From Antedon mediterranea (lineage: Eukaryota; Animalia; Echinodermata): a stretch of 64,000 nt of DNA. The first letter of the stretch is position 1. Every line of letters starts with the position of its first letter. A model generated the notes under the pieces. The model did not search any database, was not told the origin of the DNA, and worked only from the letters and a program-made list of their open reading frames with translations. The DNA is taken from the NCBI RefSeq assembly GCF_964355755.1, contig NC_092671.1:4712001-4776000 (forward strand), given 5' to 3'. The position numbers and the translations under genes were made by a program. This document shows positions 24,701 to 58,525 of the stretch, in pieces.

Positions 24701-27700
24701 ATCAAAGAAAAATATAAATACATGCAATTGTTATGATAACCAATCGCAATATAGCCAGCAACAATGTGACTTTTACATAACTACTTTGAAGTAGCTTTAC
24801 ATTAGGGAGCCACAGTTAATTGGTTAATGTTTGCCCAGCATCAGAGTAGGGCAAGCATTGACCAATTAGGAAGACGTGATTTTTTGACTGTTTTTACTTT
24901 ACTCTGCAATAGGGAACTATTAATCCTTTAGTTGCTGTGCATGTGGAAAGCTTTGTGATGCAGCATTTCTTCATATGTTACAGGCCTCACATATGATAAA
25001 TATGTGACACTGTAACACAGACCTTGCCAATGATACTGAACGAATTACTGATTAATATATTACTATACAGTAGAACACCTCCTTTGGGACACTACTATTG
25101 AGGGGATACCCTAATAAGATTCTCATGAAACAAATGAAGGGCATTATTTGCTTTAAAAGGGGACACTATTTAGACTCAAATGCGTCCCCTTAATAGGAGA
25201 CCTACTATTAATACAATTATATTACAATACCTAATACCAAATCTGTGAAACCCAACTGTATATGTTTGCCACGTGGTGCCTTTATAATCCACTGACAGTA
25301 GCCTTTGTCAGTTGACGCATAACTAACATCATATTTCTCTCCAGATGTCAATGTATACTCATGGATACAATCTAGAAAAAAGAAATATAATTTTAACTTT
25401 GACAAAAGAGATTAAATTAAAAACAATTTTTACACTTAACCCTGAACATTTTCTATGTTAATGTCAAATTAAATATTCAACGATAACCTTCTTATTTTGT
25501 CCAGGTACGACTGATTTGCGCTAGAGTGTTCTTCACAAAGGTATGCCAAGTGCAGATACGAAACAAGTTGGCAGTGACCACACTCTCTGCCATAATCATC
25601 TGTCAATGACAGCCCACAGCTCTTCTAAAGGACCAGGGTTTCAACTTCAATGTAAGTTCTTACAATGTGTCAGATTTTCTTTAATTAATGTTCAAGTTTG
25701 TAGCCAAATTTGTGCAAAGCCAAAGCATTAAAGGACAACTTAACCAAGAACCATATTTTGACAACGTATTAGGGATGTACATATAATTTCAGAACAATTG
25801 TGAGATTTACGATATTTCTGCGCGCAGCCTTAGAACCAACGGCGTAAATTGTGCTTAACAAATTCTACCTCATGAGTTTATTTTATGGTTCTTGGTAAAG
25901 TTGTCCTTTAACTCTCTACATGATAATTTTACTCTCAACTACCTCTATTTTTCTATTTAACTCTCCAAGATTTAACGCCATAACTACACACTATGCATCA
26001 TAACTCCAGAATATTAACTTACCAACTGCCGGAGACACTGTTAACATAAATCCTTTTCTCGAACCAGAAGAATCCGCATTAAATTGAATCCAGGCATTCT
26101 CAGAATCCAGGACAATGTCTTCTGGTAGATTTGAACCCGTGAAGATGGCGTACCTTGATGCCATGTTGGATGGATCGTTACCAGTTCCAATCACCAACAC
26201 ATCATAACTGTAAATGGTAGTTAAACAGAAGTATTATCATTATTTGCAGTAGAATTCCTAATAAGGGGACACCTTCAGGCCCCTAAAAAGTGTAGGATGT
26301 TCACTGAATTGTTAAAGCATAATAAAAATGGAAAATGGCCCCATAATAGGATTGATCCAAAGGGGGTGGGGGATTCTACTGATGATGATGAAATGGCCAG
26401 ATGGCCAATGTTATTGATCTATGTTTCCCCTATGTTACCTTTTTTTAAAAATTAAATAAACACTTTAACAGTTAAATCCCTATCCATATTTATAAATATA
26501 GAGGGGCGTTATCTTGTAGTAATATATCTTGAGTTTTTAGTATATTTATTCAACTTCACATGATGAAAAAGTTCTACTATAATCAACTTAAGATAAGGCA
26601 GAAAAAGTTGCAGGTCTAAAAACATAAGCAGTGAGTCAAGTCAACTTAACCTACAATAGGGACTTTATGAAACAGGAAGGGAAGACGGGAAGCCATAGGA
26701 TAGTGCTCAGGAAAAATTTATGAGCTTTAACAAAGTGGGCGGAGCTTAGCGTGAAATTCCTTCTTAACTTTTTGAGAACGATAAAGTTGTCATTTTCCCA
26801 TTTACGGAAAACTAGAAATAAAACTCTAAACAATATTTAGGAAATGCAAAAACAAATTTGACTGTCTTATCTATGAAATGTTGGATATCAGACAATTAAA
26901 ACCTAGTCTGAATAAACAAAGTGACTCTGTAAAAGCTAAGCTTTTCATTTGACAGGATGTTAGACAATAGGTCTTTTGTTATTTAAACTTTGACCCTTGG
27001 CTTGTGCTACTTAATTAGTTGTTGTTTTATATTTTATTCATTGGACTTGATAATGACCACATGATGGAGTCGAAACGTCGTTCTCTTTTAAGCGTTATTT
27101 TTATATTATATAAATATTTGAACTTCTAATTTAATTGTTTAATGAAATAACATTTTTATTCGGTTAAAATGGCTCTGTTAAAAGCATCGTTTAAATGCAA
27201 GGCCCTATAGCTAGGCCTACGCTATCACCAGAGCCAAGCAATTCAGAAGAGGATGGATCGGAGAAATATACTGCTGGTCAACGGGTGCGTAACTAATAAA
27301 CGGCTATGTTGACTGTATATGATTTTACGCTCTAGCGAACACCGGACATTCGTCGTCCACTTCCTAACCGTCGTGTAATACTTACATGTACTCAATATAA
27401 AAATCAGAGAAGTCTATTTTGAGTCTCTGCTCAGGATTTCCAATCAACAACCAAGTGTATACAATATCATTAGGATATTGATTAGGATACTCAGGACTTT
27501 TTATTACAACTGTGAGACAAAAAAAGAAAGAATCATTCAGGATTTATAAAACAGTAAATGAATACTACAAATAAACTGATCCAAGTGTTTACAGTGCGTG
27601 CCGTCATGTGTCGCAGCAATTTGATTTTAATATGTGATGTGATATTCTTGCCTTTTAAATATTAAATATTAACTAGAATTTAATTCGTCACTTTGACGAA

Positions 27701-30700
27701 TTATAGGTGATCATTTTTATCATTTTAATGAAATTAACATTTTTTAAACATGCATGTACGTTAACATGCGATCGTAAAAAGTTGATGTACGCCATCCTAT
27801 GACATGATGCATATACACTTATAGTGCTGAGTTGTACCTATTATGTGTCATATACAATATGTACAGTATATACTGTATATCTATATACAGTGTAGCATAG
27901 GTGAAATTATGGGACCCACATCATGTTCTAATTTTTTGGTATGATGGAATTATCGTAATAAACTCGAAGATGACAATTTCGAAAGATAATGAATTGAGCA
28001 AATAAATATACGGATTGGAAGAGAATTTGACACGTAGAAGCGCAATGCGCGCTCTTTGAAATTTGTATAAATTTGACGAAAGAGAGAAAAAAACTACTTT
28101 TTAACTTCAACTGACCATTTCATAATGTCACAACATCCGATAGGCCTAATTTTTATATGAATTCATATCTACATTTCATCAGCTTTTATAATAAATTATA
28201 ATCTTCAAGGTCACCTTTAATTCTGAAGAGCTGTAAGATATTCAAATATATGGTGTAGCTGAAAATACACGACCTAGGTTATTCAGGTTTTTACGCATGA
28301 TGCCGTCATCAAAATGAAAATGTTGACAACTCATGAGAAAGTTAATTAATTGAGCAAGCACATACTAAAATTTGTGCAAAAATTGGGTTCAAATAACGGA
28401 GATGCGCTCTATTGAATGTGATAACCCACACAAAAAGATAAAAATTACTAATTTTTTAATTCAAGTGGCCTTTTGATGACGTCATACCATTTTGTACGTC
28501 TAATGTGTATATACATTTATATCTACAACTCATTTGCTTCCATATTAAGTTAAAAAAATTGGGGGGTCATCTTCCATTCTGAAGAGTTATATTCATTTTA
28601 AAAAGGCCCTACTTTTTACCATTTTTAGCACTTTTGTACAATTAATGTGCGCATTTTGTCATTTTTAACGTGCTCGTATAGCGTTATTTTAAGTCTAAAT
28701 GGACTAAAAAACGGTGAATGTACTAAGGATGGTGCGTAAAATGGGATTTATATATCAAATTTTATTTTTTACGCTTTTTAAGTAACGCGCGCGCAAAAAC
28801 GTGTTTTTGCGCAGTAATTTTTAGGAACACGCAAATGGCCTAATTCATGCCCTAAATTGATCAAAACTCAATTTTGAGCTTTTTAAATTTTAAACACGCA
28901 ATTTCACGTGGATGACCTTGTAACACGTAAGTTTTTATTTGATAATATTTTTACCCTTCACCTGAACTTTACGTATAGTGAATTTTATTGATATGTAATA
29001 AAGAGTTATCGAGATATGATTGATAGTGTAATTTCACAAAATCGCGTATTAATGACGTCACGGTTAAGTGATCACGCTGAAAAGCTTATTATGGCTAAGT
29101 TAAAGTATTTGAAAGACATGGTGAAATTTTTGTGATCGTTGCCATTCAACTTTTTGAGATATTTGTTACACAAATTTGTACAGAGAGAAATAAATAATAA
29201 GAAAGAGAAGACTAGATTTGAACTCGTCACTTTGACGAGTTCGGGTTATCCGCGCATACGCAACATGCACATACTTTAAACTATATGAACCTCGACAATT
29301 ATTATGCCATCCTTTGACATGAAATAAATATGTTTACAGTGCTGAATTGTACCTATTATGTAGCATACATCATATTACAGTATTTTACAGAATAAACTGT
29401 ATGTTATATACAGTGTAGCATAGACGAAATTACGAGACCCATCTTTTAAATCCAATTATTAACACGATAACATCATCAAATTGACATATAAAGATAACCA
29501 TTTTAGAAGATAGTTATCTAAATAATTACATTAAAACAAATTTGAAGAATTTTGGGCACGTAAAAGCGAGATGCGCTCTAATTAATGTGATGAGCAATAA
29601 CGAAAGAGTAAAAAACTCTATATTTTACATTCGTGTGGCCATACGATGACGTCATAACATCCGAGGGGTAAAAATTCTGCATGAATTCATATCTACAACA
29701 TATCTACTTACATATAAAATTTAAAAAATTGGGGGTCGTGGATGATCCTGAGGAGCTATAATAGATTAAAAATAAGCATAATTTTGACAATATTTTGTAA
29801 CTTTTTCAACTAAAACGCACGCAAATGGTATAAATCAACGTGTTCGTATGACGTCATTTTAATTTGAAATGATGTCAATCTTTTTTAAAATGACTAGGAA
29901 AGACTGTAAAATTATAATTCAAGAGAAAAACACACGATTTTTATGCTCCGTGCGCACCTTACGCGTAATTTTTTTCGCGCGCGTGGGAATTTTTTACATG
30001 CTCAAAATCTCATGATCAGCGTAGAAAGTTGATTAGAAATTAATTTTGCGCATTTTTAAATTTTAAATGCGCGTGCGCGCGTAACTTCTTGTAAAACATG
30101 CCATTTTTAATCCATAGAAAGTTTGCCCAAGATATGACTTAAATTTTCACCAAGTGTCAATACAAAATAACTTTTGGTTTATAATCTATGATCAATCATT
30201 GAAATTCATAAAATCGCGCGTAACTTACGCTGCGCGACTCTAACGTCATATAACGAAGTTTCTTGCACATCTACACATACAGGTCAATCTTTTGACAAAG
30301 TTATACAATCTTATGTTCACAAGTAATAGAGATATGCTGGTCACAAAAATCCGGGAAAGAAAGAAGAACTAGACATGAAACTCGTCACTTTGACGAGTTA
30401 GTTATCCACTCGACAAACGTCACGTGCACGTCATACGTTAGAATATTGCACACAGAAAAATATTAAGGCATTATGAACTGAACTGAAGAATATGATATGT
30501 TGTTATTTCTGAATTCTGTTATTTTGTGTCATATACATAGTAACAGTACAATCTGTATACATTATCACAAACAGTGTAAAATAGGTGAAATTACGGGACC
30601 CGTATTTTATTGTAATTTTTAACATCTTGACGGTTTCAAAATGAAATGTAAAAGTAGAAATTTCTGAATGAAATTATCTCAGCAACAACGTATTAATGTG

Positions 30701-33700
30701 TAGAAGAAATTTGAATACGTGAAATATTGATGCGCGCTCTTTTAAATGTAATGAAATATAATGCAAAAGATGAAAATACGACTTTTTTTATTTAACTGGC
30801 CATATGATGACGTCACAACATTCAATTGGCACAATTTACACATGATTTTGTATCTACAATACAATAGCTTCCTGAAAACGTTTTAATTGTGATTATCACA
30901 TTTTATTCTTACGAGGCATAACAGATTAAAATTTACTGTAAAGATGAAATTAATGACCAACGTAATTTAAATTTTTAGGCATAATGACGTTAAAAAAATT
31001 AAAAAATTTTTAATTCATGCAAAAGATAGTTGATAGATCTAGAATATATTAAAATCGGAATGAAAATGGACAACGAATAAGTGGAGATGCGTTCTATTAA
31101 ATGTGATGAGCTATGACGAAAGAGACAAAAATCCTATATTTTATATTCGCGTGGCCATACGATGACGTCACAATGTCCGGTTAGCCATATTAATGCATGA
31201 TCAGATATCTACAACTCATCAACTTCCAGAATATGTAATTAAAAAAAAAGTTCTCCATGTAGTTTAGAATCTATGACTGTTTAAAAATAGGCATAATTTT
31301 GACGAATTTTGGAACTTTTTCACCAAATACGCGTGCAAATTATCTAATTCGACGTGCTCGTATGACGTAATTTTAAGTCGAAATTGTTTAAAATTTGGTA
31401 ACATTACTAGAAAAGGCTGAAAAAACATAAATCAAGCGAAAAAAATATGTTTTTAACGCTACGTGTGCACCGCGTGCGTAAAAATGTTCGCGCGCGTGGG
31501 AATTTTTGACATGCTCAAAATGACATGAAACGCATAGAAAGTTGATTAGAAGTTTATATTTCGCACGTTAAAATTTTAAACGCGCGTGCGCGCGTAACTT
31601 TTTGTGAAACATGCTATTTTTAATCCATAGAAAGTTTGCGCTTGATATGACTTAAATTTTCACAAAGTTTCAAAACAAAATTATGTTTGGTTTTTAGTCT
31701 ATGATCAATCATTGAAATTCATAAAATCGCACGTAAGTCACGTTGCGCAACTCTGACGTCATTCAAAAATAGGAGGTGCACAAGTTCACGTAAATGTCGA
31801 TATGTTGACAAAGTTACGATATGTTCTGTCTACACGTTTTAGAGAAACGCGACGCACAAAAATGACAGAAAGAAAGAAGTACTAGACATGTAACTCGTCA
31901 CTTTGACGAGTTAGTTATCCGCTCGACAAACGCCACGTGCACGTCATACGTTAGAATATTGCACACAGAAAAATATTAAGGCATTATGACCTGAACTGAA
32001 GAATATGATATGTTGTTATTTCTGAATTATGTTATTTTGTTGTCATATACATAGTATACACAGTACAATCTGTATACATATCACAAACAGTGTAAAATAG
32101 GTGAAATTGGGACCCGTATTTTATTGTAATTTTTAACATCTTGACGGTTTCAAAATGAAATGCAAAAGTAGAAATTTCAGAATAAAATTATCTCAGCAAC
32201 AACATATTAACGTGTAGAAGAAATTTGAATACGTGAAATATTGATGCGCGCTCTTTTAAATGTAATGAAATATAACGCAAAAGATGAAAATATGACTTTT
32301 TGTATTTAACTGGCCATATGATGACGTCACAACATTCGATTGGCACAATTTTCTTATGATTTTGTATCTACAATACAATAGCTTCCTGAAAACGTTTGAA
32401 TCGTGATTATCACATTTTATTCTTACGAGCTATACCAGATTAAAATTTACTGTAATGATGAAATTAATGACCAACGTAATTTAAATTTTTAGGCATGATG
32501 ACGTTAAAAAAATTAAAAAATTTTTAATTCATGCAAAACATAGTTGATAGACCTAGAATATATTAAAATCGGGGTGAAAATGAACAACGAATAAGTGGAG
32601 ATGCGCTCTATTAAATGTGATGAGCTATGAAGAAAGAGACAAAAATCCTATATTTTATATTCGCGTGGCCATACGATGACGTCACAATGTCCGGTTAGCC
32701 ATATTAATGCATGATTCGATATCTACCACTCATCAACTTCCAGAATATGTAATTTAAAAAAAGTTCTCCATGTAGTTTAGAATCTATGACTGTTTAAAAA
32801 TAGGCATAATTTTGACGAATTTTTGAACTTTTTCACCAGAAACGCGTGCAAATTATTTAATTCGACGTGCTCGTATGACGTAATTTTAAGTCGAAATTGT
32901 TTAAAAGTTGGTAACATTACTATAAAAGGCTGAAAAAACATAAATCACGCGAAAAAAATATGTTTTTAACGCTACGTGTGCACCGCGTGCGTAAAAAGTT
33001 TCGCGCGCGTGGGAATTTTTGACATGCTCAAAATGACATGAAACGCATAGAAAGTTGATTAGACGTTGATTTTTCGCACGTTAAAATTTTAAACGCGCGT
33101 GCGCGCGTAACTTTTTGTGAAACATGCTATTTTTAATCCATAGAAAGTTTGCGCTTGATATGACTTAAATTTTCACAAAGTTTCAAAACAAAATTATGTT
33201 TGGTTTTTAGTCTATGATCAATCATTGAAATTCATAAAATCGCACGTAAGTCACGTTGCGCAACTCTGACATCATTCAAAAATAGGAGGTGCACAAGTTC
33301 ACGTAAATGCCGATATGTTGACAAAGTTACGATATGTTCTGTTTACACGTTTTAGAGAAACGCGACGCACAAAAATGACAGAAAGAAAGAAGTATAATAC
33401 AGAAAAAAACTAGATTTGAACTCGTCACTTTGACGAGTTCGGGTTATCCGCGCATACGCAACATGCACATACTTTAAACTATATGAACCTTGACAATTAT
33501 TATGCCATCCTTTGACATGAAATAAATATGTTTACAGTGCTGAATTGTACCTATTATGTAGCATACACCATATTACAGTATTTTACAGAATAAACTGTAT
33601 ATATGTTATATACAGTGTAGCATAGACGAAATTACGAGACCCATCTTTTAAATCCAATTATTAACACGATGACATCATCAAATTGACATATAAAGATAAC

Positions 33701-36700
33701 CATTTTAGAAGATAATTATCTAAATAATTACATTAAAACAAATTTGAAGAATTTTGGGAACGTAAAAGTGAGATGCGCTCTCGTTTAAACGCAATGAACT
33801 TTGACGCAAGAGATGAAAATATGACTTTTTGAATTCAACTGGCCATATGATGACGTCACAACATCTGATTGGCAAAATATTCACATCAATTCGTATCTAC
33901 AATCCAATAGCTTCCAGAAAACGTTTTAATCATGATTATCACTTTTTAATCTGACGAGCTATAACAGATTGAAATTTACTGTAAAGATGAAAATAAGTGA
34001 CCCAAGTTATTTACGTTTTTAGACATGATGACGTCATAAAAATTAAAATATTTTTAATTCATGCGAAAGATAGTTGATTGACGTAGACAATATTATAATT
34101 TCGGGGGAAATGGAATACGTATAAGCGAGATGCGCTTTGTTGAATGTGATGAGCAATAGCGAAACAGTAAAAAATCCAATATTTTACATTCGTGTGGCCA
34201 TACGATGACGTCATAACATCCGAGTGGTAAAGATTCTGCATGAATTCATATCTACAACATATCTGCTTACATATTAAGTTAAAAAAATTGGGGGTAACGG
34301 TTGATCCTGAGGAGCTATAATAGATTAAAAATAGGCTTAATTTTGACATTATGTTGTCACTTTTGCAACTAAAACGCGCGCAAATGGTGTAAATCAACGT
34401 GTTCGTATGACGTCATTTTAATTTGAAATGATGTCAATCTTTTTTAAAATAACTAGGAAAGACTGTCAAATCATAATTCAAGAGAAAAACACATGATTTT
34501 CGTGCTCCGTGCGCACCTTACGCGTAATTTTTTTCGCGCGCGTGGGAATTTTTGACATGCTCAAAATGTCATGATCAGCGTAGAAAGTTGATTAGAAATT
34601 AATTTTGCGCATTTTTAAATTTTAAATGCGCGTGCGCGCGTAACTTTTTGTGAAACATGTCATTTTTAATCCATAGAAAGTTTGCCCTTAATTTAACTTA
34701 AATTTTCACAAAGTGTCAATATATAATGACTTTTGGTTTATAATCTATGATCAACCATTTAAATTCATAAAATCGCGCGTAACTCACGCTGCGCGACTCT
34801 AACGTCATATAACGAAGTTTCTTGCACATCTACAGCTACAGGTCAATCTTTTGACAAAGTTATACAAAGTTATGTTCACAAGCAATAGAGATATGCTGGT
34901 CACAAAAATCCGGGAAAGAAAGAAGAATAACTAGACATGAAACTCGTCACTTTGACGAGTTAGTTATCCGCTCGACAAACGCCACGTGCACGTCATACGT
35001 TAGAATATTGCACACAGAAAACTATTAAGGCATTATGACCTGAACTGAAGAATATGATATGTTGTTATTTCTGAATTCTGTTATTTTGTGTCATATACAT
35101 AGTATACACAGTACAATCTGTATACATATCACAAACAGTGTAAAATAGGTGAAATTATGGGACCCGTATTTTATTGTCATTTTTAACATCTTGACGGTTT
35201 CAAAATGAAATGCAAAAGTAGAAATTTCAGAATGAAATTATCTCAGCAACAACATATTAACGTGTAGAAGAAATTTGAATACGTGAAATATTGATGCGCG
35301 CTCTTTTAAATGTAATGAAATATAACGCAAAAGATGAAAATACGACTTTTTGTATTTAACTGGCCATATGATGACGTCACAACATTCGATTGGCACAATT
35401 TTCACATGATTTTGTATCTACAATACAATAGCTTCCTGAAAACGTTTTAATCGTGATTATCACATTTTATTCTTACGAGCTATAACAGATTAAAATTTAC
35501 TGTAAAGATGAAATTAATGACCAACGTAATTTAAATTTTTAGGCATGATGACGTTGAAAAAATTAAAATATTTTTAATTCATGCAAAAGATAGTTGATTG
35601 ACCTAGAACATATTAAAATCGGGGTGAAAATGGACAACGAATAAGTGGAGATGCGCTCTATTAAATGTGATGAGCTATGACGAAAGAGACAAAAATCCTA
35701 TATTTTATATTCGCGTGGCCATACGATGACGTCACAATGTCCGGTTAGCCATATTAATGCATGATTCGATATCTACAACTCATCAACTTCCAGAATATGT
35801 AATTAAAAAAAAGTTCTCCATGTAGTTTAGAATCTATGACTGTTTAAAAATAGGCATAATTTTGACGAATTTTTGAACTTTTTCACCAGAAACGCGTGCA
35901 AATTATTTAATTCGACGTGCTCGTATGACGTAATTTTAAGTCGAAATTGTTTAAAAGTTGGTAACATTACTATAAAAGGCTGAAAAAACATAAATCACGC
36001 GAAAAAAGCATGTTTTTAACGCTACGTGTGCACCGCGTGCGTAAAAAGTTTCGCGCGCGTGGGAATTTTTGACATGCTCAAAATGACATGAAACGCATAG
36101 AAAGTTGATTAGAAGTTGATTTTTCGCACTCCAAAATTTTAAACGCGCGTGCGCGCGTAACTTTTTGTGAAAGATGCTATTTTTAATCCATAGAAAGTTT
36201 GCGCTTGATGTGACTTAAATTTTCACAAAGTGTCAAAACAAAATTATGTTTGGTTTTTAGTCTATGATCAATCATTGAAATTCATAAAATCGCGCGTAAG
36301 TCACGTTGCGCAACTCTGACGTCATTCAAAAATAGGAGGTGCACAAGTTCACGTAAATTTCGATATGTTGACAAAGTTACGATATGTTCTGTTTACACGT
36401 TTTAGAGAAACGCGACGCACAAAAATGACAGAAGGAAAGAAGTACTAGACATGAAACTCGTCACTTTGACGAGTTAGTTATCCGCTCGACAAACGCCACG
36501 TGCACGTCATACGTTAGAATATTGCACACAGAAAAATATTAAGGCATTATGACCTGAACTGAAGAATATGATATGTTGTTATTTCTGAATTCTGTTATTT
36601 TGTGTCATATAGTATACACAGTACAATCTGTATACATATCACAAACAGTGTAAAATAGGTGAAATTACGGGACCCGTATTTTATTGTAATTTTTAACATC

Positions 36701-39700
36701 TTGACGGTTTCAAAATGAAATGTAAAAGTAGAAATTTCTGAATGAAATTATCTCAGCAACAACGTATTAATGTGTAGAAGAAATTTGAATACGTGAAATA
36801 TTGATGCGCGCTCTTTTAAATGTAATGAAATATAATGCAAAAGATGAAAATACGACTTTTTTTATTTAACTGGCCATATGATGACGTCACAACATTCAAT
36901 TGGCACAATTTACACATGATTTTGTATCTACAATACAATAGCTTCCTGAAAACGTTTTAATTGTGATTATCACATTTTATTCTTACGAGGCATAACAGAT
37001 TAAAATTTACTGTAAAGATGAAATTAATGACCAACGTAATTTAAATTTTTAGGCATAATGACGTTAAAAAAATTAAAACATTTTTAATTCATGCAAAAGA
37101 TAGTTGATAGATCTAGAATATATTAAAATCGGAATGAAAATGGACAACGAATAAGTGGAGATGCGCTCTATTAAATGTGATGAGCTATGACGAAAGAGAC
37201 AAAAATCCTATATTTTATATTCGCGTGGCCATACGATGACGTCACAATGTCCGGTTAGCCATATTAATGCATGATCCGATATCTACAACTCATCAACTTC
37301 CAGAATATGTAATTAAAAAAAAAGTTCTCCATGTAGTTTAGAATCTATGACTGTTTAAAAATAGGCATAATTTTGACGAATTTTGGAACTTTTTCACCAA
37401 ATACGCGTGCAAATTATCTAATTCGACGTGCTCGTATGACGTAATTTTAAGTCGAAATTGTTTAAAATTTGGTAACATTACTAGAAAAGGCTGAAAAAAC
37501 ATAAATCAAGCGAAAAAAATATGTTTTTAACGCTACGTGTGCACCGCGTGCGTAAAAATGTTCGCGCGCGTGGGAATTTTTGACATGCTCAAAATGACAT
37601 GAAACGCATAGAAAGTTGATTAGAAGTTTATATTTCGCACGTTAAAATTTTAAACGCGCGTGCGCGCGTAACTTTTTGTGAAACATGCTATTTTTAATCC
37701 ATAGAAAGTTTGCGCTTGATATGACTTAAATTTTCACAAAGTTTCAAAACAAAATTATGTTTGGTTTTTAGTCTATGATCAATCATTGAAATTCATAAAA
37801 TCGCACGTAAGTCACGTTGCGCAACTCTGACGTCATTCAAAAATAGGAGGTGCACAAGTTCACGTAAATGTCGATATGTTGACAAAGTTACGATATGTTC
37901 TGTCTACACGTTTTAGAGAAACGCGACGCACAAAAATGACAGAAAGAAAGAAGTATAATACAGAAAAAAAATTTGATGAAACAGGACGATTACAAGGAGT
38001 TATCCGCTACTAAGCGGATAACTAACTAGACCTGAAACTCGTCACTTTGACGAGTTAGTTATCCGCACGACAAACGCCACGTGCACGTCATACTCGTTGG
38101 AATTTTGCACACAGAAAAAGATAATGGCATTATGACCTGATCTGATCTGAAGAATATGATATGTTGTTAGTGCTGAATTCTGTCAATTTTGTATCATAGT
38201 ATCAGTATAAACAGTATAATCTGTATACATATTACATACAGTGTAGAATAGGTGAAATTACGGGACCCGTCATTTATACCATTTTTTAACATGGCGACGG
38301 TATCAAAATGAAACACTAAAATAACAATTTCGGAAGGATATTATCTCAGCAACAACATATTAACCTGTAGAAGAAATTTGGATACGTGAAATATAGATGC
38401 GCGCTCTTTTAAATGTGATGAACTATGACGCAAAATATAAAAATACAACTTTTTTTATTCAACTGGCCATATGATGACGTCACTACATCTGATTGGCAAA
38501 ATGTTTACATGAATTCGTATCTACAATCCAATAGCTTCCAGAAAACGTTTTAATCGTGATTATCACATTTTATTCTTACGAGCTATAACAGATTAAAATT
38601 TACTGTAAAGATGAAATTAATGACCCACGTAATTAAAATTTTTAGGCATGATGACGTCATCAAAATTAAAATATGTTTAACTCATGCGAAAGATAGTTGA
38701 TTGACCTAGACAATGTTAAAATCTCGGTGAAAATGGAAGATGGATAAGCGTGATGCGCTCCATTGAATGTGATGAGCAATAACTAAAGAGACAAAAATCC
38801 TATATTTTACATTTGTGTGGCCATATGATGACGTCACAACATCCGTGAAGAAAAAATTCTGCATGAATTCATATCTACAACATAACTGCTTTCATATTAA
38901 ATTAAAAAAATCAGGGGTAACGGTTGATCCTGAGGAGCTATAATAGATTCAAAATAGGCATAATTTTGACAATATTTTGTAACTTTTGCAACTACAACGC
39001 ACGCAAATGGTCTAAATCAACGTGTACGTATGACGTCATTTTAATTTGAAATGATGTTAATCTTTTTAAAAATGACTAGGAAAGGCTGGAAAATCACAAT
39101 TTAATAGAAAAAAACATGATTTTCATGCTGCGTGCGCACTGCACGTGTAAAATTGTTCGCGTGCGCGGGAAATTTTGACATGCGCAAAATGTCATGAATG
39201 GCGTAAAAAGTTGATTAGAAATTAATTTTGCGCATTTTAAAATTTTAAATGCACGGGCGCGCGTAACTTCTTGTAAAACATGCCATTTTTAATCAACAGA
39301 AAGATTGCCCTTGATATGACTTAAATTTTCAGAAATTGTAAAAAAAAAAATTATGCTTGGTTTTTAATCTAAGATCAATCATAAAAAATCATAAAATCGC
39401 GCGTAAGTCACATTGCGCAACTCTGACGTCATTCAAAATAGGAGGTGCACAACTTCACATAAATGCCCATGTTTTGACAAAGTTATGAAATGTTATGTTT
39501 ACCCATTTCAGAGAAACGCGTCTCACAAAAAGGAAGGAAAGAAAGAAGAATAATACAGAAAAATATTGATCCAATACAATCACAAGGAGTTATCCGCTAC
39601 TAAGCGGATAACTAACAAAGAAGATGATGAAGAAAAAGATATTTACAATCACAAGGGTTATCCGCAACTTAAAGTTGCGGATAACCAAAAAATTTGATGA

Positions 39701-42700
39701 AACAGGACGATTACAAGGAGTTATCCGCTACTAAGCGGATAACTAATAATACAGAAAAAAAATTTGATGAAACAGGACGATTACAAGGAGTTATCCGCTA
39801 CTAAGCGGATAACTAATAATACAGAAAAAAAATTTGATGAAACAGGACGATTACAAGGAGTTATCCGCTACTAAGCGGATAACTAAATAACAAAGAAGAT
39901 GAAAAAAGATATTTACAATCACAAGGGTTATCCGCAACTTTATAAGTTGCGGATAACCAAATAAAGATTTCATACAATAACAATAGGTGATCATTTTATT
40001 CTAAATGATCACCTAATAAGGTAAAAGGTATGTGAGTCATGTGAACATAGATAAATGAACTGTGTGGAGATCGTAATGCCTCAGAATTGGTTGGATGGTC
40101 ATTTTCCCCTTAACCTCTCTATATTAATTTTTAAGTAGGTGCTCATTTACCCGTTGAGACTGGTGTTTTTATCGGGAATTGAACCTGGGTCTTCTCCTAT
40201 ATGATAGTGAATTGTCCTAACCACTCTGAATGATATCACATTTTAAACAGACGAAAAAAATGATAGTAAATTGAACTTTGCCCTTAATTTTCTACACCAC
40301 CAAGGAAAAATTGCACTACACACTGGCTATTAAACAATCAGATAGCACGAAATGTATTATTTGAAATTAATCCTACCTCCATTTGCTGGAACATTGTATG
40401 TATAATTATTAAGTGTTGCTGTTGGAATTGCATCAGATGGCTTGTTGTTATGAACTTCTGGAAAAAAGAAGAAATTTGACAGTTAGAAATGTGTCAACCA
40501 TGATAGCTCTAGCACAATTAACAAGTCCCTAACCATGTGTAGATTGAGGGTTCAAACACCCACCCCCCACCCCCTTTTTTTGCTTGAAGCTTTTTTCTTC
40601 TAGAGACAAGCAGCGGAAGTATGGGTTAAACATGCCAAATCCCTGTAAAAATCCGGGGGTCTTTCAATCCATGACACTTCACAAGGGCTTTTAGCAAACA
40701 CAGATATTTCTTGCAACCACCTAACTTTAATTGTAGAGCTCTACGGAAGTTGTATGTCATGTTCCACCCATCCTCTGTCTACACTGTCAAACTCTATGTG
40801 ACAAAAAGTTTGATATGCTCATTATATATTAATATAAATATTTATATCTGTAACTCTGACAGAGTGTTCTAGATGGCATAAATAAATGCTGATTCAAAAT
40901 AAGCTATGAGTTGTTAATGAAGGCTTGTCTGACCATTCCAACATATGGACATAATGGTGTTATAGCACTAGCATATTTGGCCATATATTTGGGCATCACT
41001 TCCATATTTGGGCAAATCACAAACTATTTTGATAGTGTAGACAGAGGTAAGACCTTCTGTGCATTTAGGCCATATACTTTTTTTGAACAAAATGAAAATG
41101 CACATAAATATAAATATTTCAACCTACTGTTCGTAGTAGAAGTTTGATACACTTGTAATGTCAATGCAAACCCACGTCCACTGCTAGAGTAGTCACTAAC
41201 AAACGTAATAGTAACTTTGGAACCTTGTGTTCTTAACTGATCGTATACCACTTGATTTCCAGTAAATTGCAAATTCCCACCATTTTCGCTAGTAATATAC
41301 ATAACATCATACATGTTTTCCATGTCAATATCCAGTATATCAATCACAATTTGTTGACCAGAGGAAGCGGAGATTTCATATACAGATTGCATTAGATTTG
41401 GATAATTATTTGGATAGTTCGAGGAAGTCAAGCGTAACAATGAGCCGGTCTTAAGTGTTTCTGTTATTACATTTTGTTTACGATCTGGAACTGTAAAGAA
41501 AATAATAGATAACATATTAGTAATCATAACACACCTAAGAACATTCTTACCATTTGATTGCTTCGAATTCAAATAGTGGCATTCATAATTTCAGTCTATT
41601 CAATGGAAATGTTCTGCTAAATTATTCTATTCAACAGCCAGATTGTTGTACAAATGTTGAGGTTGTTGCAACGCAGGCCAATAAACCAATCTATAGTAAG
41701 CTATGGATTATCATTTAGCATCTGATTTTTGTATATAGTACTTAATAGTGTATTTCTATTCAATTACCAACCTCCTGGACTGTCCTCTATGTGCATTCGA
41801 AACCCAGATCCACTTGTAGATCCCATTGAGTAGAAAGTTACATAAATCACACTAGCACTGGTCACATAATTTTTAGGTAGATTTTTGCCATTAAGGCGCT
41901 GTAAAAAAAAAAACATATGAATATTGACAATAGTACAATTTGCATTTTAAACAAAAAGAGAAAAGGTTCAAGCTAACAGGCAAATAAAAAAAAACATGAC
42001 AAACACAAACCACACAAAATGCAGGTAAAAACTCTAGAGATTGTTGAACCAACACTCTTAACCACCCAAAATGGTAATGACGCAACAAAAACAACATTTG
42101 TTTACCAAATACTTATCTGGATAGCTGTCATCCTCAATCTGTAGATAGTCATCACTACTGATGTCAAAGGCATCAAAGACAAATTCAAGTCCACTGGTGT
42201 CATCTGATGAATGTAGCATATATGTGCAGTTAATCTGTTCAGGATAAACATCGGGCCAAAATAAAGATGAAATATTTGCTGGGCTACGGAAGTGTAGAAG
42301 CTCATCACAGTCAGTTTTGACTACAAAAGAAATAATTAGTTACATAACATTACATAACACAAACACACACATTGTTGCATTATTGCTGTTGCAGTGAGTA
42401 ACCTTAATGGATGGACCCTTCACAGTATTTTTGAAATAAATGGATACATTAACATACCTAGCCTAGGCTATGCCTAGAACTGTAGTAGTACTAACCTAGG
42501 GGAATCCCTAACCTAGTAGGTCTAGGCATAACTAGTTTAGTAGTAGTCCACGGTCTATCTAGCTCTCTGGCCTATCTTTGCTAGTTCTAGATAGAGTAGC
42601 CTACTAGCTAGGCCAAGCAAGGCCCTATCGTAATAGCCTCGTCCTGGTTGATACTATAGGCCTATACTACAGACAGGAGCAGCATTAATAACTATGATGG

Positions 42701-44503
42701 TATCCTTTAAATCAAGTCTTAATCTTATTTTATATAGGCCTAACAACGTCAAATATTAAATTAGCAGATTTATAAAGATTATAAAGATATATGAAAAGAG
42801 CGGTCAAATTAAAACCGAAAAACAGTCATGCTCTGCTAAAAAAAATCTATTTTAAAGAGGGCGCAATAACAAATAGTAAAAATAATATTCGGCAAAATTT
42901 GATTAACATAAATAAAAGTACATAGGCCTCAGAGTAGTCGACCAAACCAAGTCAGAAAATATTTAAAAATGGATTGTTTACTACATTAAAAATACATGTA
43001 ATTAAATTGTTTTTGGTGTTCATGCCATTTTTACTAGAAAACTTACATGAAAAACTGTAATTTAAAGAAAAAAATAGTCACAAGTTTGGGTTTTGGTTAT
43101 AAATCCCATTATTTGGTCTTTTTTGTAAGTTTTTTAAATAACTTAATTAAAATTGCCTATTTCAAAGTATGATGTTATTAATCTGGATCCCCATTGTGAA
43201 AATACATTATAAGCAACAATACATTTAAATTTGGTAAGTTTCAGACTGCTGACCATGGGTGAAGCTCTGTCTACACAAAATTTATGTGACAAAAATGTGA
43301 TCATTTGCCCATGATTACATATTTGGGCATATCACTACCATATTTGGCCACATCACACTTTTTTGTCAAACGAGTTTGATAGTGTAGACAGAGCTTAAAT
43401 GTGCTCACATGGACTGACATTTAAGAATAGTTTTTAATAGTAGGTCTATAACATTTAGACTAAAATAGCGATTGTTATTTCTTTAATGATAGGAATCTTT
43501 TAAAACGTCTGTACCTGAAGTATTGTACGATAACGAGAATCCCTTTCCATTGATAGATTTATCCGTGATAAATCGAAACCAAACTTCTCGGCCGTTTAGT
43601 TCCAAAGTATCTGGGATATTGCTGGTAGAATCATCTCCTGTTAGATACTCGGCATTTTCAATATCACTGGAATCGCTACCAATACCATAATACAAGATGT
43701 CCAACTTATTTTCCAGTTGAAAATCTGTAATTGTGACTGTATACTGGTACGCTAACGGAACGTCAATGACGTATGTGCAATCTAGGTTATTGTCGTAACC
43801 ACCAGCCGGATTATTTGAAATATCACCTGTAGATTCAGTGTAGGTTCCACCGCATGACGATTGCCCTGAAAGAAAAAGCCATAATAGTGAAGACAGTACG
43901 CAATCATTGTTTCTCTCTACAGATATCCGGCCCTGCTGTAGGCCTAGTAATGAAGAATTCTGACCTAGAGAACTTGGTCGAAATCCTGCTCGAGAATTAT
44001 CAAATAGACTCATACTATAAAGGCCTATAATAAATATTTATAATATACGCATTAATTAGGCCTTCCGTTCGATTATGTGCAACATATATAACATCTAGAT
44101 CACTAACAATAATGATGACTATAATTATGCATAGAGCACCTATTACATCAACATTTTTTAAAGAAAAAACATTAATGCATTATTTATTTTGCATAGTGGA
44201 TCACAGGTAAAAGGGTTGATAGATTTAGTTTTTTTAATTTCAAATTAGTTAAAAAAAATTCCCTTAGTCCATAATCAAGTGTAACACTGTATTCAATCTT
44301 ATCTTACTTAGATCTTACTTTCTATATGCTTAGAAAGCGTGCTAGAGGCTTAAAACAAGTAAAAATGAATCAAAACAAATACATTTGAAGAAGAAAAAAA
44401 GATTATAAAACTACATACCGTTACTAATGGGAACATTAATAAAGTTTAAAATAACTCCAATTATCAGTAACCTGTAACCCAACATTCTCGTCGGTTCCTT
44501 CAT
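1..44503 (-). CDS. Giant secreted or cell-surface CUB / C-type lectin / fibronectin type III mosaic protein (cubilin-like or mannose-receptor-like by domain content); 3' end lies beyond the left edge of the window
   Basis: Manually spliced GT-AG exons keep one frame: 44503-44419 (MKEPTRMLGYRLLIIGVILNFINVPISNG, signal peptide), 43865-43515, 42320-42106, 41898-41772, 41490-41128, 40457-40377, 27509-27386, 26207-26023, 25371-25231, 24698-24519, 23996-23782, 23456-23336 (CUB1-6); 22969-22772, 22461-22267, 21964-21665, 21264-21070, 20816-20628, 20018-19728, 19478-19290, 18775-18572, 17724-17425, 16842-16660, 16180-15977, 15667-15383 (4x CTL-FN3); 14798-14575, 14114-13985, 13496-13155, 12739-12526, 12191-12007, 11614-11456, 10959-10768, 10587-10370, 10282-10162 (CUB7-11); 9796-9608, 9123-8920, 8426-8284, 7757-7601, 7151-6957, 6555-6352, 6258-5962, 5762-5571, 5187-4984, 4278-4136, 4040-3887, 3646-3446, 2935-2726, 2256-1963, 1566-1384, 715-512, 208-<1 (5x CTL-FN3). 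Motifs: SPxYPxxYPNNxxCxW and FxSDxSxxGxGF (CUB); CPxGW..CYKF..TWxxAxxxC..WIG..QPD..C..WxDxxC..YICE (CTL); LTWxP..GY..GLxPxTxYxF (FN3). Domain-boundary introns are phase 1. About 10.1 kb of CDS is visible. Confidence 0.9.
335..423 (-). mobile_element. Truncated 5' head of the same tRNA-derived SINE
   Basis: Closely similar to 51703-51790 (ACCATGGAGCGAGTGAGCCTCAAACC...CTTAACCGTTCGGACACTCACTC). Confidence 0.7.
847..1006. mobile_element. Harbinger-like MITE copy
   Basis: AGCTATGTCTACACTGTCAAAC...GTTGACAGAGCT with the internal ATATGGTAGTGATATG repeat. Confidence 0.65.
2355..2600. repeat. Degenerate purine-rich low-complexity repeat (AGAGAAGCAGC-like)
   Basis: Recurrent GAGCAGC / GAGAAGCAGCT / CAGCTAAGAGAC motifs inside an intron. 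Confidence 0.45.
10162..14798 (-). CDS. Second CUB x5 block of the giant gene
   Basis: GNITSPNFPSPYPPNANCAY; SSSYPNQYPNYENCTW..MTSDYSITGRGF; ITSPLYPNNYENNVNCVW; ISSPSYPMDYPNNADCIW. Confidence 0.88.
10604..10640. repeat. (GATT)n microsatellite just upstream of a splice acceptor
   Basis: ATTGATTGATTGGTTGATTGATTGTTTGATTGATTGAT. Confidence 0.8.
14270..14395 (+). mobile_element. Degenerate SINE remnant with a CORE-like central domain
   Basis: GTGTTCTTAAGCAAAACACTTT...TGCCTCCATCCACCCAGGTGTACAAATGGGTACC resembles the central conserved domains of invertebrate SINEs. Confidence 0.45.
15383..22969 (-). CDS. First (C-type lectin-FN3) x4 block of the giant gene
   Basis: Four repeats, each two CTL exons split at WIG plus one FN3 exon of 285-300 nt; matches ORF-track fragments 22202-22468, 21594-21986, 19714-19980, 17393-17794 and 15330-15686. 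Confidence 0.88.
17041..17172. mobile_element. Harbinger-like MITE copy
   Basis: AGCTCTGTCTACACTATCAAAC...GTAGACAGAG. Confidence 0.7.
23336..43865 (-). CDS. N-terminal CUB x6 block of the giant gene (exons 2-12), interrupted by a 12.9 kb intron (27510-40376)
   Basis: Examples: CGGTYTESTGDISNNPAGGYDNNLDCTYVI...FITDKSINGKGF; SSNYPNNYPN...FVSDYSSSGRGF; the exon 27509-27386 (VVIKSPEYPNQYPND...) continues in frame from 40457-40377 across the large intron. Confidence 0.85.
24158..24282. mobile_element. Harbinger-like MITE copy with TTA target duplication
   Basis: TTA|AGCTCTATCTACACTATCAAAC...GTTTGATAGTGTAGACAAGGCT|TTA. Confidence 0.7.
25067..25208. mobile_element. Degenerate Tc1/mariner-type MITE (TACAGTAGAAC...GTTCTACTGTA family); fragments also at about 4685-4759, 26247-26300 and 49872-49930
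   Basis: TA-CAGTAGAAC termini with recurring GGGGACAC / GTGTCCCCT-TAATAGG internal motifs. Confidence 0.5.
25732..25907. mobile_element. MITE with TTAA target duplication (Kolobok-like termini)
   Basis: TTAA|AGGACAACTTAACCAAGAACCATA ... TATGGTTCTTGGTAAAGTTGTCCT|TTAA. Confidence 0.7.
34930..38024 (-). mobile_element. HINE family C copies 3 and 4 (C3 body 34930-36443 without its own 5' end; C4 complete 36444-38024), nested in B2
   Basis: Two CTAG/stem-loop 3' ends (34930 and 36444) but only one 5' hairpin (about 37998-38024). Confidence 0.78.
38025..39615 (-). mobile_element. HINE family D (C-type termini, partly B-like interior), complete copy inserted at the C4 5' terminus
   Basis: ACTAGACCTGAAACTCGTCACTTTGACGAGTTAGTTATCCGC ... 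CACAAGGAGTTATCCGCTACTAAGCGGATAACTAA. Confidence 0.8.
43263..43395. mobile_element. Harbinger-like MITE copy
   Basis: AGCTCTGTCTACAC...GTTTGATAGTGTAGACAGAGCT. Confidence 0.7.
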
Positions 44504-57549: not shown

Positions 57550-57687
57550 AGCTCTGTCTACACTATCAAACTTGTTCCAACAAAATAAGTGTGATGTGCC
57601 CAAATATGGTAGTGATGTGACATCATGTCCATATATGGGCACATCACATTTTTTTGTCACATAAAGTTTGATAGTGTTGACAGAGCT
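57550..57687. mobile_element. Harbinger-like MITE copy
   Basis: AGCTCTGTCTACACTATCAAAC...GTTTGATAGTGTTGACAGAGCT. Confidence 0.7.
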
Positions 57688-57865
57688 TTAAGTTTAGTTA
57701 AATAGTAATCATTAGGGTGAGGTAGTGGGTAGTAAGAATAGGAAATATGGTCAAAATTGTAATGAGGTGTACACGTCAATGAGGAATATTCTTTATTTAC
57801 CTATTAGATTACTTGGTTGCTATTTTGCTGGTGACAACTGTACCCGAGTGCCACCAGGTATGGAA

Positions 57866-58525
57866 ATATTGATATAAAGTTTGCAGTACACCACGTATGA
57901 AAAGAACTGTTGAGTTTCTCGATGTTTGATCAATATGCTTTGATCGTCCTTTAGGAGTGAGAAACGAGAACGATCAAAGCATATTGATCGAAATGTCGAG
58001 AAACTCAACAGTTCTTTTCAGAACTAATATACGTGGTAATACATTTCGATCAATATGCTCAGGAGTGAGAATGTGCATTCTTATTTGACAGGCACTCCTG
58101 AGGACGATCAAAGTATATTGATCGAAATGTCGAGAAACTCAACAGTTCTTTTCAGAACTCATATACGTGGTGTACCGCAAACTTTATATCAACATTTGAT
58201 TTCGCCATGCAATCCTTCTAACAATATATGGAAATATTGTATGGTGAAAATTGAAATGACATATGTATGTATACATCAATGATGTTAATGTAATATATTG
58301 TTTGAAGGTTTGCATGGTGAAATCAAATGTTGATATAAAGTTTGCGGTACGACACCACGTGTATTAGTTCTGAAAAGAACTGTTGAGTTTCTCGACATTT
58401 CGATCAATATGCTCAGGAGTGAGAATGTGCATTCTTATTTGACAGGCACTCCTGAGGACGATCAAAGTATATTGATCGAAACGTCGAGAAACTCAACAGT
58501 TCTTTTCAGAACTAATACACGTGAT
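57866..58525. mobile_element. Penelope-like retroelement relic: inverted and tandem pLTR-like fragments carrying minimal hammerhead ribozyme motifs
   Basis: A unit of about 100 bp (GAAAAGAACTGTTGAGTTTCTCGACATTTCGATCAATATG and its reverse complement) is repeated in both orientations. It contains CTC-CTGAGGA-C-GATCAA(AGTATA)TTGATC-GAAA-CGTC-GAG. Confidence 0.6.
58449..58488 (+). ncRNA. Minimal type I hammerhead ribozyme motif (Penelope-associated type); second copy at 58095-58134
   Basis: Stem I CUC/GAG, core CUGAGGA, 6-bp stem II, GAAA, palindromic ACGU in place of stem III, and a GUC cleavage triplet. Confidence 0.55.

What the first reader, a model, noticed from the sequence alone, without database searches (positions are those of the whole stretch)
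27672..40016. Matryoshka nest of eight self-targeting Helentron-type elements: 3' ends open in series and 5' hairpins stack like closing brackets
Seen directly: eight left ends (ACTAG plus the CGTCACTTTGACG stem-loop) at 27672 A, 29211 B1, 30368 C1, 31881 C2, 33409 B2, 34930 C3, 36444 C4 and 38025 D. There are also eight right-end hairpins, ending at about 38024 c, 39615 d, 39688 b, 39746 c, 39816 c, 39886 c, 39960 b and 40016 a. Family-specific sequence pairs left with right ends in last-in-first-out order, and host sequence rejoins across the junctions (e.g. GAAGTA|TAATACAG, GAATAA|CAAAGAAG). Every insertion landed within about 75 bp of the previous element's 5' end, mostly in or beside its GAAA microsatellite, and in the same orientation. 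None of this family is seen elsewhere in the 64 kb. Established: subTIRs, a 5' hairpin, a 3' stem-loop, a microsatellite and no TSD define Helentron-associated elements (HINE/DINE-1/pearl type). Inference: the family actively targets its own 5' subterminal region. This would be a safe-haven strategy that grew one intron by more than 12 kb without touching exons, and gives an ordered stratigraphy (A oldest).
Basis: partly seen in the sequence, partly recalled or inferred. Interest (0 to 1): 0.88.

Follow-up and report, generated by a model that had tools for sequence, protein, structure and literature searches.

The report
Intron swollen by nested rolling-circle transposons
Eight copies of small non-coding transposons of the rolling-circle (Helitron2/Helentron) type sit one inside another in a single intron of an animal gene, all facing the same way and joined 56-74 bases from an earlier copy's front end, which likely reflects a preference for landing on their own kind that is already reported in fungi but is rarely preserved this completely.

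Summary
The nest is real. Eight 3' ends and eight 5' hairpins lie at the stated places (within 1 base), all on the minus strand. They make up 12,344 of the 13,618 nt of one intron of a CUB/lectin/FN3 gene. The ends meet the tested Helitron2/HINE terminal features; no transposase is present and no partner could be sought. Strict last-in-first-out pairing fails: C3 lacks its 5' end inside B2, one spare 70-nt C 5' end lies outside it, and D sits beside C4, not inside it. Depth is 6-7, and the inner order is unresolved. Contigs from two organisms show further same-strand 5'-end-to-family-tail junctions absent from this window, including cross-family ones, alongside copies in unrelated DNA. Self-insertion is therefore probably genome-wide, but the enrichment is only bracketed (about 3.5- to 3,000-fold). 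One sample likely carries the empty site. Likely cue: a resident 5' hairpin plus the adjacent same-strand T/pyrimidine tract. Self-insertion near the 5' end is published for Fusarium Helitrons, and this scan noted four similar nests on other genomes. 'Safe-haven strategy' is untested.

The parts
27672..29210 (-). Element A, body and 3' end (outermost; 3' stem-loop, 13-bp subTIR of its own family)
   Evidence: 73-74% identical to B2, C and D
39960..40015 (-). Element A, first 56 nt (5' hairpin)
   Evidence: hairpin -11.3 kcal/mol, z -5.5
29211..30367 (-). Element B1, body and 3' end; lacks one 357-nt internal repeat unit relative to B2
39886..39959 (-). Element B1, first 74 nt (5' hairpin)
   Evidence: z -9.0
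30368..31880 (-). Element C1, body and 3' end; 99.5% identical to C4
39746..39815 (-). C-type first 70 nt; rejoins C1 exactly
39816..39885 (-). Spare C-type 5' end (70 nt, identical to the previous one); no open body to pair with
31881..33408 (-). Element C2, body and 3' end
39688..39745 (-). Element C2, first 58 nt
   Evidence: rejoin with 3 extra A
33409..34929 (-). Element B2, body and 3' end
39615..39687 (-). Element B2, first 73 nt
34930..36443 (-). Element C3, body and 3' end only; its first 70 nt are missing at the place where nesting predicts them
36444..38024 (-). Element C4, complete and uninterrupted (1,581 nt)
38025..39614 (-). Element D, complete and uninterrupted (1,590 nt), head-to-tail beside C4 inside B2
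   Evidence: 85% identical to C
41128..41490 (-). Host exon upstream of the intron (CUB domain)
   Evidence: (PF00431, E 1.5e-14)
27386..27509 (-). Host exon downstream of the intron (first half of a CUB domain); acceptor 162 nt from the nest
   Evidence: (PF00431, E 5.7e-06)
27510..41127 (-). Host intron, GT...AG, 13,618 nt of which 12,344 are the nest

Best explanation
The stretch is a nest of eight non-coding Helitron2/Helentron-type elements on one strand, joined 56-74 bases inside one another's 5' ends, likely built by repeated rolling-circle insertions that a transposase encoded elsewhere is predicted to aim at an intact resident 5' end. Shown: anatomy, junction positions, co-orientation, no target duplication, and further 5'-end-to-tail junctions in two organisms. 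Inferred mechanism: the target is a resident's 5' hairpin/subTIR (where RepHel binds and nicks) together with the T/pyrimidine tract that follows on the same strand. Joining the incoming strand to that same strand fixes orientation and distance. Each insertion separates the resident's hairpin from its tract, so only the newest copy stays a full target and the nest grows inward. The two irregular ends are likely by-products of mobilising nested copies: start at an outer 5' end and stop at the first 3' end gives a doubled 5' end (C1 plus spare), and start at an inner 5' end with read-through gives two bodies with one 5' end (C3+C4). Odds: real nest by self-insertion about 0.9; genome-wide preference about 0.8; hairpin-plus-tract cue about 0.5.
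For: Termini and rejoins. All five nested insertion points fall in the innermost copy; if any resident 5' end or tract would do, that has chance 1/120. TT sites in the first 85 nt are only 4.3-4.7% of a copy's TT sites, so TT preference alone does not explain it; that zone holds 9 of 17 (C4) and 17 of 31 (D) 8-nt pyrimidine runs, against 1 on the opposite strand. None of 19 comparable host pyrimidine tracts in the window carries a copy (tract-only null 6e-6). Contig joints absent from the window: table 5 lists 9 joints, none changing strand, 8 clearly from a 5' hairpin into a family tail and 1 ambiguous (39938>39982). They include A into A (depth 3564 in X1, single-copy flank 204-272), C/D into A (both organisms) and C into C; table 5c adds A into B, B into C- or D-like tails, and a fifth 5'-end type. 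One search shows 3' ends joined to C and D tails in X5 (depth 2441, 2076) and B into B. Precedents: doubled 5' ends by self-insertion in Fusarium; 3' read-through shown for Helraiser.
Against: No genome was held, so copies and flanks could not be counted; the enrichment bracket from contig depths is 3.5- to 3,352-fold and depth is not a copy number. Doubled-5'-end units can multiply by transposition, so junction depth overstates independent insertions. One search offered only 56-74-nt tails as landing zones, so it cannot show insertions elsewhere in bodies, 284 joints and 321 table-5c rows were not shown. Five of the 9 joints have under 30 letters on one side at 90% likeness. Many 5' ends lead into unrelated DNA. 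D sits beside C4, so one of those two insertions used only one of the two cues. At least one of the 19 host tracts (27533) is a splice acceptor where insertions would be purged, and 8 of 19 have a YAG nearby. No transposase was found and nothing here tests binding or nicking. No long read spans the nest.
Confidence: 0.72

Rival explanations
1. Sequence-only preference: the transposase favours (TTTC)n-like pyrimidine tracts on one strand, and each copy happens to carry the best such tract near its 5' end; the hairpin plays no part.
For: A review states that MINE-1 helitrons insert at GAAA microsatellites (PMC3812793 passage; the primary paper was not held). The 5' zone holds each copy's strongest pyrimidine window and it is strand-asymmetric. 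Five of six sites are followed by pyrimidine-rich sequence. The window outside the nest has only 4 doubled TTTC/GAAA units.
Against: Tracts left behind older copies' bodies stay available, yet all five nested insertions went to the innermost copy (1/120); 0 of 19 host tracts are used; element A itself landed in plain AT-rich DNA; B2 landed in a T-run 58 nt from the end, ahead of the microsatellite.
Confidence: 0.25
2. The two irregular ends come from recombination or slippage after insertion (loss of one 70-nt unit inside B2 and gain of one outside, or loop-out and re-entry of a C body), not from rolling-circle end shuffling. This leaves the nest itself intact as an explanation.
For: Exactly one C 5' end is missing inside B2 and exactly one is spare outside; moving C3 between C1 and C2 would restore perfect nesting (reasoned). 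The 70-nt units are 100% identical tandem copies.
Against: C1/C4 versus C2/C3 diagnostic sites (32 columns, positions 171-1467) show no switch within any copy, so a crossover would have to fall in the first ~170 nt. Doubled 5' ends that transpose as units are documented in Fusarium.
Confidence: 0.35
3. Assembly artefact: near-identical repeats were stitched into a false or mis-ordered nest.
For: No long read or contig spans the structure. C1 and C4 share a 682-nt identical run. The matched minus-one/plus-one anomaly could be a mis-ordering. The flank contig of sample S1 does not run into element A's 5' end.
Against: No N in the window; all copies differ (0.5-27%) at scattered sites; five rejoins are exact or differ only in A count; same-kind junctions occur in independent runs. 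The S1 flank contig stops matching at 40014 with 27 letters unlaid, the figures expected for an empty allele.
Confidence: 0.07
4. Insertion is random and selection leaves only harmless insertions inside existing copies (a filter, not targeting).
For: The nest begins 162 nt from a splice acceptor in a gene with many short introns, where other insertions may be purged.
Against: Selection on the host cannot tell the first 75 nt of a copy from the other 1,500 nt, nor force one orientation; none of the nested insertions is in a body.
Confidence: 0.04

Closest known systems
HINE / DINE-1-like non-autonomous Helentrons (Thomas, Vadnagara and Pritham 2014, PMC4067079; passages read) and oyster Cg_HINEs (PMC7492417; passages)
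   Same: Non-coding; subTIRs, 5' inverted repeat, 3' stem-loop, 4-nt microsatellite near the 5' end, internal repeats, T-rich target, no target duplication, variable number of terminal T.
   Different: No nested self-insertion at a fixed 5' zone appeared in the passages read. Internal repeats here are two ~355-nt units about 70% alike, not satellite arrays. The 3' ends finish with CTAG(T), as in canonical Helitrons.
Helitron2 / HLE2 (Bao and Jurka 2013, PMC3627910; HELIANO, PMC11417382; passages)
   Same: 5' T, 5' ATIR within 2 nt of the end folding into a hairpin, 3' ATIR directly before the 3' hairpin, mostly T^T or T^C sites.
   Different: The 3' ATIR ends 31-33 nt from the end (defined as about 20-30). 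The group is defined partly by RepHel phylogeny, which cannot be tested without a coding partner.
Fusarium FoHeli elements with multiple 5' termini (Chellapan et al. 2016, PMC5148889: passages and section 10; PMC13342296: passages)
   Same: Same-orientation self-insertion 31-85 nt from the 5' end, proposed there; doubled to five-fold 5' ends that transpose as units.
   Different: There mostly the products are seen (several 5' ends, one 3' end). Here the full intermediates survive, 6-7 deep, in an animal intron, and elements with different subTIRs (A versus B versus C/D) target each other.
Maize Helitrons with multiple termini (Dong et al. 2011, PMC3288121; passages) and Helraiser 3' read-through (PMC4778049; passages)
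   Same: Nested copies give elements with extra ends; preference to insert near other Helitrons is stated; 3' terminators can be bypassed.
   Different: These are canonical HLE1 elements; no fixed 5' landing zone is described, and Helraiser showed no local hopping in 701 events.
MINE-1 of Lepidoptera (seen only through a review passage, PMC3812793, and a reference title)
   Same: Helitron-like element that inserts at GAAA microsatellites.
   Different: Its target is described as host microsatellites; here the microsatellite is carried by the element next to its own 5' hairpin.

Membership tests
Helitron2/HLE2 | 5' end begins with T; 5' ATIR within 0-2 nt folds into a hairpin | tested here: met
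   All four 5' types fold with z -5.5 to -9.0, 0 of 200 shuffles as stable
Helitron2/HLE2 | 8-15-bp 3' ATIR immediately before a 3' stem-loop, about 20-30 nt from the end | tested here: met
   Read: A 13 bp, B 10 bp, C 12 bp (C1 one mismatch), D 11 bp; ends 31-33 nt from the terminus, slightly beyond the stated range; stem-loop present in 8 of 8
Helitron2/HLE2 | Insertion at T^T (or T^C) without target duplication | tested here: met
   With the terminal T given to the 3' end: 4 of 6 sites T^T, 1 T^C, 1 T^A; no duplication in 6 of 6 rejoins. The T is ambiguous between element and host
Helitron2/HLE2 | RepHel transposase in the HLE2 clade | not testable with these tools
   No Pfam hit in 6 of 6 nest ORFs of 60 aa or more; no genome held
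HINE (non-autonomous Helentron) | Non-coding, with microsatellite and/or internal repeats | tested here: met
   (TTTC)n-like tract 69-95 nt from the 5' end; 353-357-nt internal repeat in A, B2, C4, D
HINE (non-autonomous Helentron) | Variable number of terminal T at insertion | tested here: met
   C2 rejoin +3 A versus C4; B1 rejoin +1 A versus B2; judged against sister copies, not true empty sites
HINE (non-autonomous Helentron) | Autonomous partner sharing subTIRs and encoding Rep/Helicase plus endonuclease | not testable with these tools
   No genome; no family copies in JGI metagenomes or viral contigs
HINE (non-autonomous Helentron) | Boundaries confirmed by an empty site; dispersed copies | tested here: inconclusive
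   Dispersed copies: yes. Empty site: S1 flank contigs stop matching at 40014 with 27 letters unlaid, as an empty allele predicts, but the letters were not displayed
Canonical Helitron (HLE1) | 5'-TC start, no 5' hairpin or ATIR | tested here: not met
   5' ends start TAG or TGG after a T and carry hairpins and ATIRs
Canonical Helitron (HLE1) | 3' hairpin followed by CTRR | tested here: met
   8 of 8 end in CTAG(T) about 9-11 nt after the stem-loop
Satellite or rolling-circle tandem array | Head-to-tail near-identical units from one template | tested here: not met

The most novel reading that the evidence does not exclude
Helitron2-type transposases use a resident copy's own replication origin as a dedicated landing pad: a 5' hairpin plus the same-strand pyrimidine tract 55-75 nt downstream. 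The rule crosses families with different subTIRs, each insertion destroys the pad it used and supplies a new one, and so nests grow inward indefinitely at one neutral spot. This would be a self-renewing target site for a eukaryotic rolling-circle transposon.
Probability: 0.35. Interest if true: 0.75.

Novelty: new variant of a known kind. Interest (0 to 1): 0.5.

Why it matters
How Helitron2/Helentron elements choose targets beyond 'TT' was not settled in the papers I read. This locus preserves the intermediates that were only inferred for Fusarium elements with multiple 5' ends, fixes the landing zone to 56-74 nt, shows cross-family targeting, and suggests a two-part cue that can be tested by counting in one assembly or in a plasmid assay. 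It also shows a route by which an intron grows about tenfold (1.3 to 13.6 kb) from one site, and how new chimeric ends and short tandem arrays of 5' ends can arise. Repeat annotators would misread such nests as satellites or fragments.

Tried and rejected
Whole-genome copy census and search for an autonomous partner: no genome held. JGI metagenomes: 0 hits for the 3'-end pattern; 77 hits for a 5'-hairpin pattern, none with more than 67 nt of similarity and none to element bodies, so not family members. Viral contigs: 1 hit, only the stem-loop motif in unrelated sequence. Rfam: 0 matches at E 0.1 over 27600-40100. Pfam: 0 of 6 nest ORFs. No RNA holder listed. Contigs covering only part of the stretch, and the lack of a spanning contig, are not used as evidence of absence. 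Strict eight-level nesting rejected. TT preference alone rejected. Recent exact duplication of C1/C4 not supported: 7 substitutions and several indels are scattered, most private to C1. Two papers could not be read: the MINE-1 primary paper and a maize paper sought by a recalled id. Eight answered literature searches found no description of a deep 5'-zone nest in an animal; most subscription papers and all supplements (for example Fusarium Table S6) were not seen, so this is weak. Look-ups of this scan by sequence and by place returned nothing.
Full report
Setting. The window is animal-type DNA (GC about 0.33, no N). Minus-strand exons match Pfam CUB, Lectin_C and fn3 (6 of 6 exons of this gene that I scanned). 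The nest, 27672-40015 (12,344 nt), lies in a GT-AG intron from 41127 to 27510 (13,618 nt; 1,274 without the nest), 1,112 nt from the donor and 162 nt from the acceptor; the flanking exons join in one open frame. No whole genome was held.

Anatomy. The stem-loop pattern occurs 8 times in 64 kb, always about 14 nt after ACTAG, all in the nest and on one strand. Self-BLAST shows no family sequence elsewhere. Read on the minus strand, each element starts with T and a 5' hairpin (z -5.5 to -9.0), carries the matching 10-13-bp repeat just before a 3' stem-loop, and ends in CTAG(T). This fits the Helitron2 and HINE definitions in the passages I read. There are three subTIR types (A; B; C/D) and one shared 3' stem-loop core. 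Identities: A to others 73-74%, B2 to C about 80%, D to C 85%, B1 to B2 95%, among C 96.6-99.5% (the A-B1 global alignment failed and is ignored). Reconstructed lengths are 1,581-1,595 nt, except B1 at 1,231. No coding capacity (0 of 6 ORFs with a Pfam hit) and no Rfam match.

Nesting. Five host copies rejoin cleanly: B1 sits 56 nt into A, C1 74 nt into B1, C2 70 nt into C1, B2 58 nt into C2, and the C3/C4/D block 73 nt into B2. There is no target duplication; two rejoins carry 1 or 3 extra A relative to sister copies, as reported for HINE ends. A stack parse matches family at 6 of 8 closings. It fails because C3 has no 5' end before B2 closes, and because two identical 70-nt C ends follow when only C1 is open. 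C4 and D are complete and lie head-to-tail. The nest is thus 6-7 deep. A is first at this site, then B1, C1, C2, B2; the order of C3/C4/D is not readable, and blocks may have arrived ready-made. In line with C1 being older here than C4, most of their differences are private to C1.

The two irregular ends. Rolling-circle mobilisation of nested copies predicts both: start at an outer 5' end and stop at the first 3' end gives a doubled 5' end, the model drawn for Fusarium; start at an inner 5' end and bypass one terminator gives two bodies on one 5' end, with bypass shown for Helraiser. Against this, one missing and one spare end cancel exactly, which a single rearrangement or mis-ordering of C3 would also give. 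The 32 sites that separate C1/C4 from C2/C3 show no switch between positions 171 and 1467, which limits any crossover to the first ~170 nt. I put end shuffling somewhat ahead of local recombination and assembly error low.

Is it more than chance? A 75-nt zone on one strand of a 1.59-kb copy is 0.024 per event, 7e-9 for five. TT sites in the first 85 nt are 4.3-4.7% of all TT sites on both strands, so TT preference does not help much. The zone does hold the strongest pyrimidine window of C4 and D, and 8-nt pyrimidine runs are 16 to 1 and 30 to 1 in favour of the element's own strand. Outside the nest 19 comparable tracts carry no copy; 8 have a YAG nearby and at least one is a real acceptor, so purifying selection is a confounder. 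All five nested insertions went into the innermost copy, the only one whose hairpin and tract are still joined (1/120 if any 5' end or tract would do).

Evidence from other DNA. Nineteen runs hold part of the stretch; I laid 4 of them on 36444-41600 and 2 on 39817-40200. All are contigs. Summed depth is about 1e5-3e6 on elements against 200-270 on unique flank in X1 (organism A), and similar in X5 (organism B); the tool warns this is not a copy number, but the family is clearly abundant in both. One search lists 9 joints, none changing strand: 8 run from a 5' hairpin into a family tail and 1 is ambiguous; 4 have 30 or more letters on the short side. With the 12 of 20 rows shown in table 5c, they cover A into A, A into B, C/D into A, C into C, B into C- or D-like tails and a fifth 5'-end type into A and C. 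One search shows 3' ends joined to C and D tails in X5 and a B-into-B junction in X1 and X5; most rows there were not displayed. These junctions are not in the window, so self-insertion is not peculiar to this locus. Copies in unrelated DNA are also common: loose ends behind A's 5' end in 11 and 14 contigs (X1) and 8 (X5), with 118 rows not shown. A rough bracket for A ends in X1 gives about 20 copy-equivalents in family tails, 0.4-12% of A ends, against 0.11-0.004% at random: 3.5- to 3,352-fold. It is inflated if doubled ends multiply as units, and offered only tails as landing zones.

Empty site. In sample S1 (runs X1, X3) flank contigs of 816 and 180 nt match from 40014 outward and leave 27 letters unlaid. 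An empty allele shares exactly two bases with the window at that point, whereas C/D or B ends would match to 40013 or 40015; 27 is also the count expected where empty and filled paths merge at word length 31 (the word length is from the tool text). The letters were not displayed, so this is a likely, not proven, presence/absence polymorphism.

Mechanism. Shown: structure, positions, orientation, recurrence. From established Helitron biology: RepHel binds and nicks the 5' end, unwinds 5' to 3', and forms circles. Inferred: an incoming strand is joined to the same strand of a resident copy, at a T 55-75 nt past its 5' hairpin, where a T/pyrimidine tract begins; bound transposase or local unwinding at the resident origin supplies the target. 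Each event splits hairpin from tract and brings a fresh pair, so the nest grows inward. The main rival is a pure microsatellite preference like that reported for MINE-1 (review passage). The side-by-side C4/D pair shows that one cue can suffice at least once.

Comparison and novelty. The elements pass every terminal test for Helitron2/HINE that could be run; the transposase tests could not be run, so 'Helentron' in the strict endonuclease-bearing sense is unproven. Self-insertion 31-85 nt from the 5' end was proposed for Fusarium elements in 2016 (passages and section 10), with up to five 5' ends in TR4 (passages); maize Helitrons with multiple ends were traced to nests (passages). Eight searches did not turn up a deep, bodies-retained, cross-family nest in an animal; subscription papers and supplements were not seen. 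This scan has noted four similar nests in other genomes, unchecked by me and not counted as support.

Verdict. A real and well-preserved nest, less tidy than first described, of a known element class showing a behaviour known in outline. Its value is a sharp, testable rule for Helitron2 target choice. Interest 0.5.

Noticed in passing
window 27672-40015: Families only 73-85% alike keep nearly the same total length (A 1,595; B2 1,594; C 1,581-1,586; D 1,590 nt) and the same 353-357-nt internal duplication, which hints at a length constraint.
   Followed up: no
window 29211-30367 versus 33409-34929: B1 lacks one 357-nt internal unit and differs from B2 at 6 of 368 sites before the gap but 51 of 783 after it, so one of them looks mosaic.
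   Followed up: partly
runs X1 and X5 laid on window 39869: Contigs show a fifth 5'-hairpin type of the same group, not present in the window, joined to A and C tails.
   Followed up: no
window about 30340-30373 and 34900-34931, minus strand: The B-type pyrimidine tract is followed within about 25 nt by a YAG on the host transcript strand, a possible cryptic splice acceptor.
   Followed up: no
window, about 13 places, e.g. 17037-17176, 43262-43398, 57550-57690: A separate dispersed ~140-nt palindromic repeat (MITE-like) occurs in many introns in both orientations; it never lies inside the nest.
   Followed up: no
window 61233-64000: Inverted pair of ~700-nt repeats (61244-61938 and 63288-64000, 85% alike) built of ~295-nt subunits; may be the arms of another element cut by the window edge.
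   Followed up: no
window 57864-58527, 54630-55562, 49284-49534: A complex fold-back repeat, a 150-nt inverted pair about 630 nt apart, and a short-period tandem array.
   Followed up: no
window 53232-48243, minus strand: Exons of a second gene that by recall resemble a dihydrodiol-dehydrogenase-like oxidoreductase; the two exons scanned gave no Pfam hit at E 0.01.
   Followed up: partly
window 1-44037, minus strand: The host is a very long mosaic extracellular protein with repeated CUB, C-type lectin and FN3 modules that runs off the window.
   Followed up: partly
L002, L012, L017, L026, L041, L050, L053, L058, L067 (match at the positions): A dispersed ~110-nt double-hairpin repeat in apparently bacterial metagenome contigs (9 of 16 loci examined, of 77 fetched) has a first hairpin like the C/D 5' hairpin; the likeness was selected by my pattern and is probably incidental.
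   Followed up: partly
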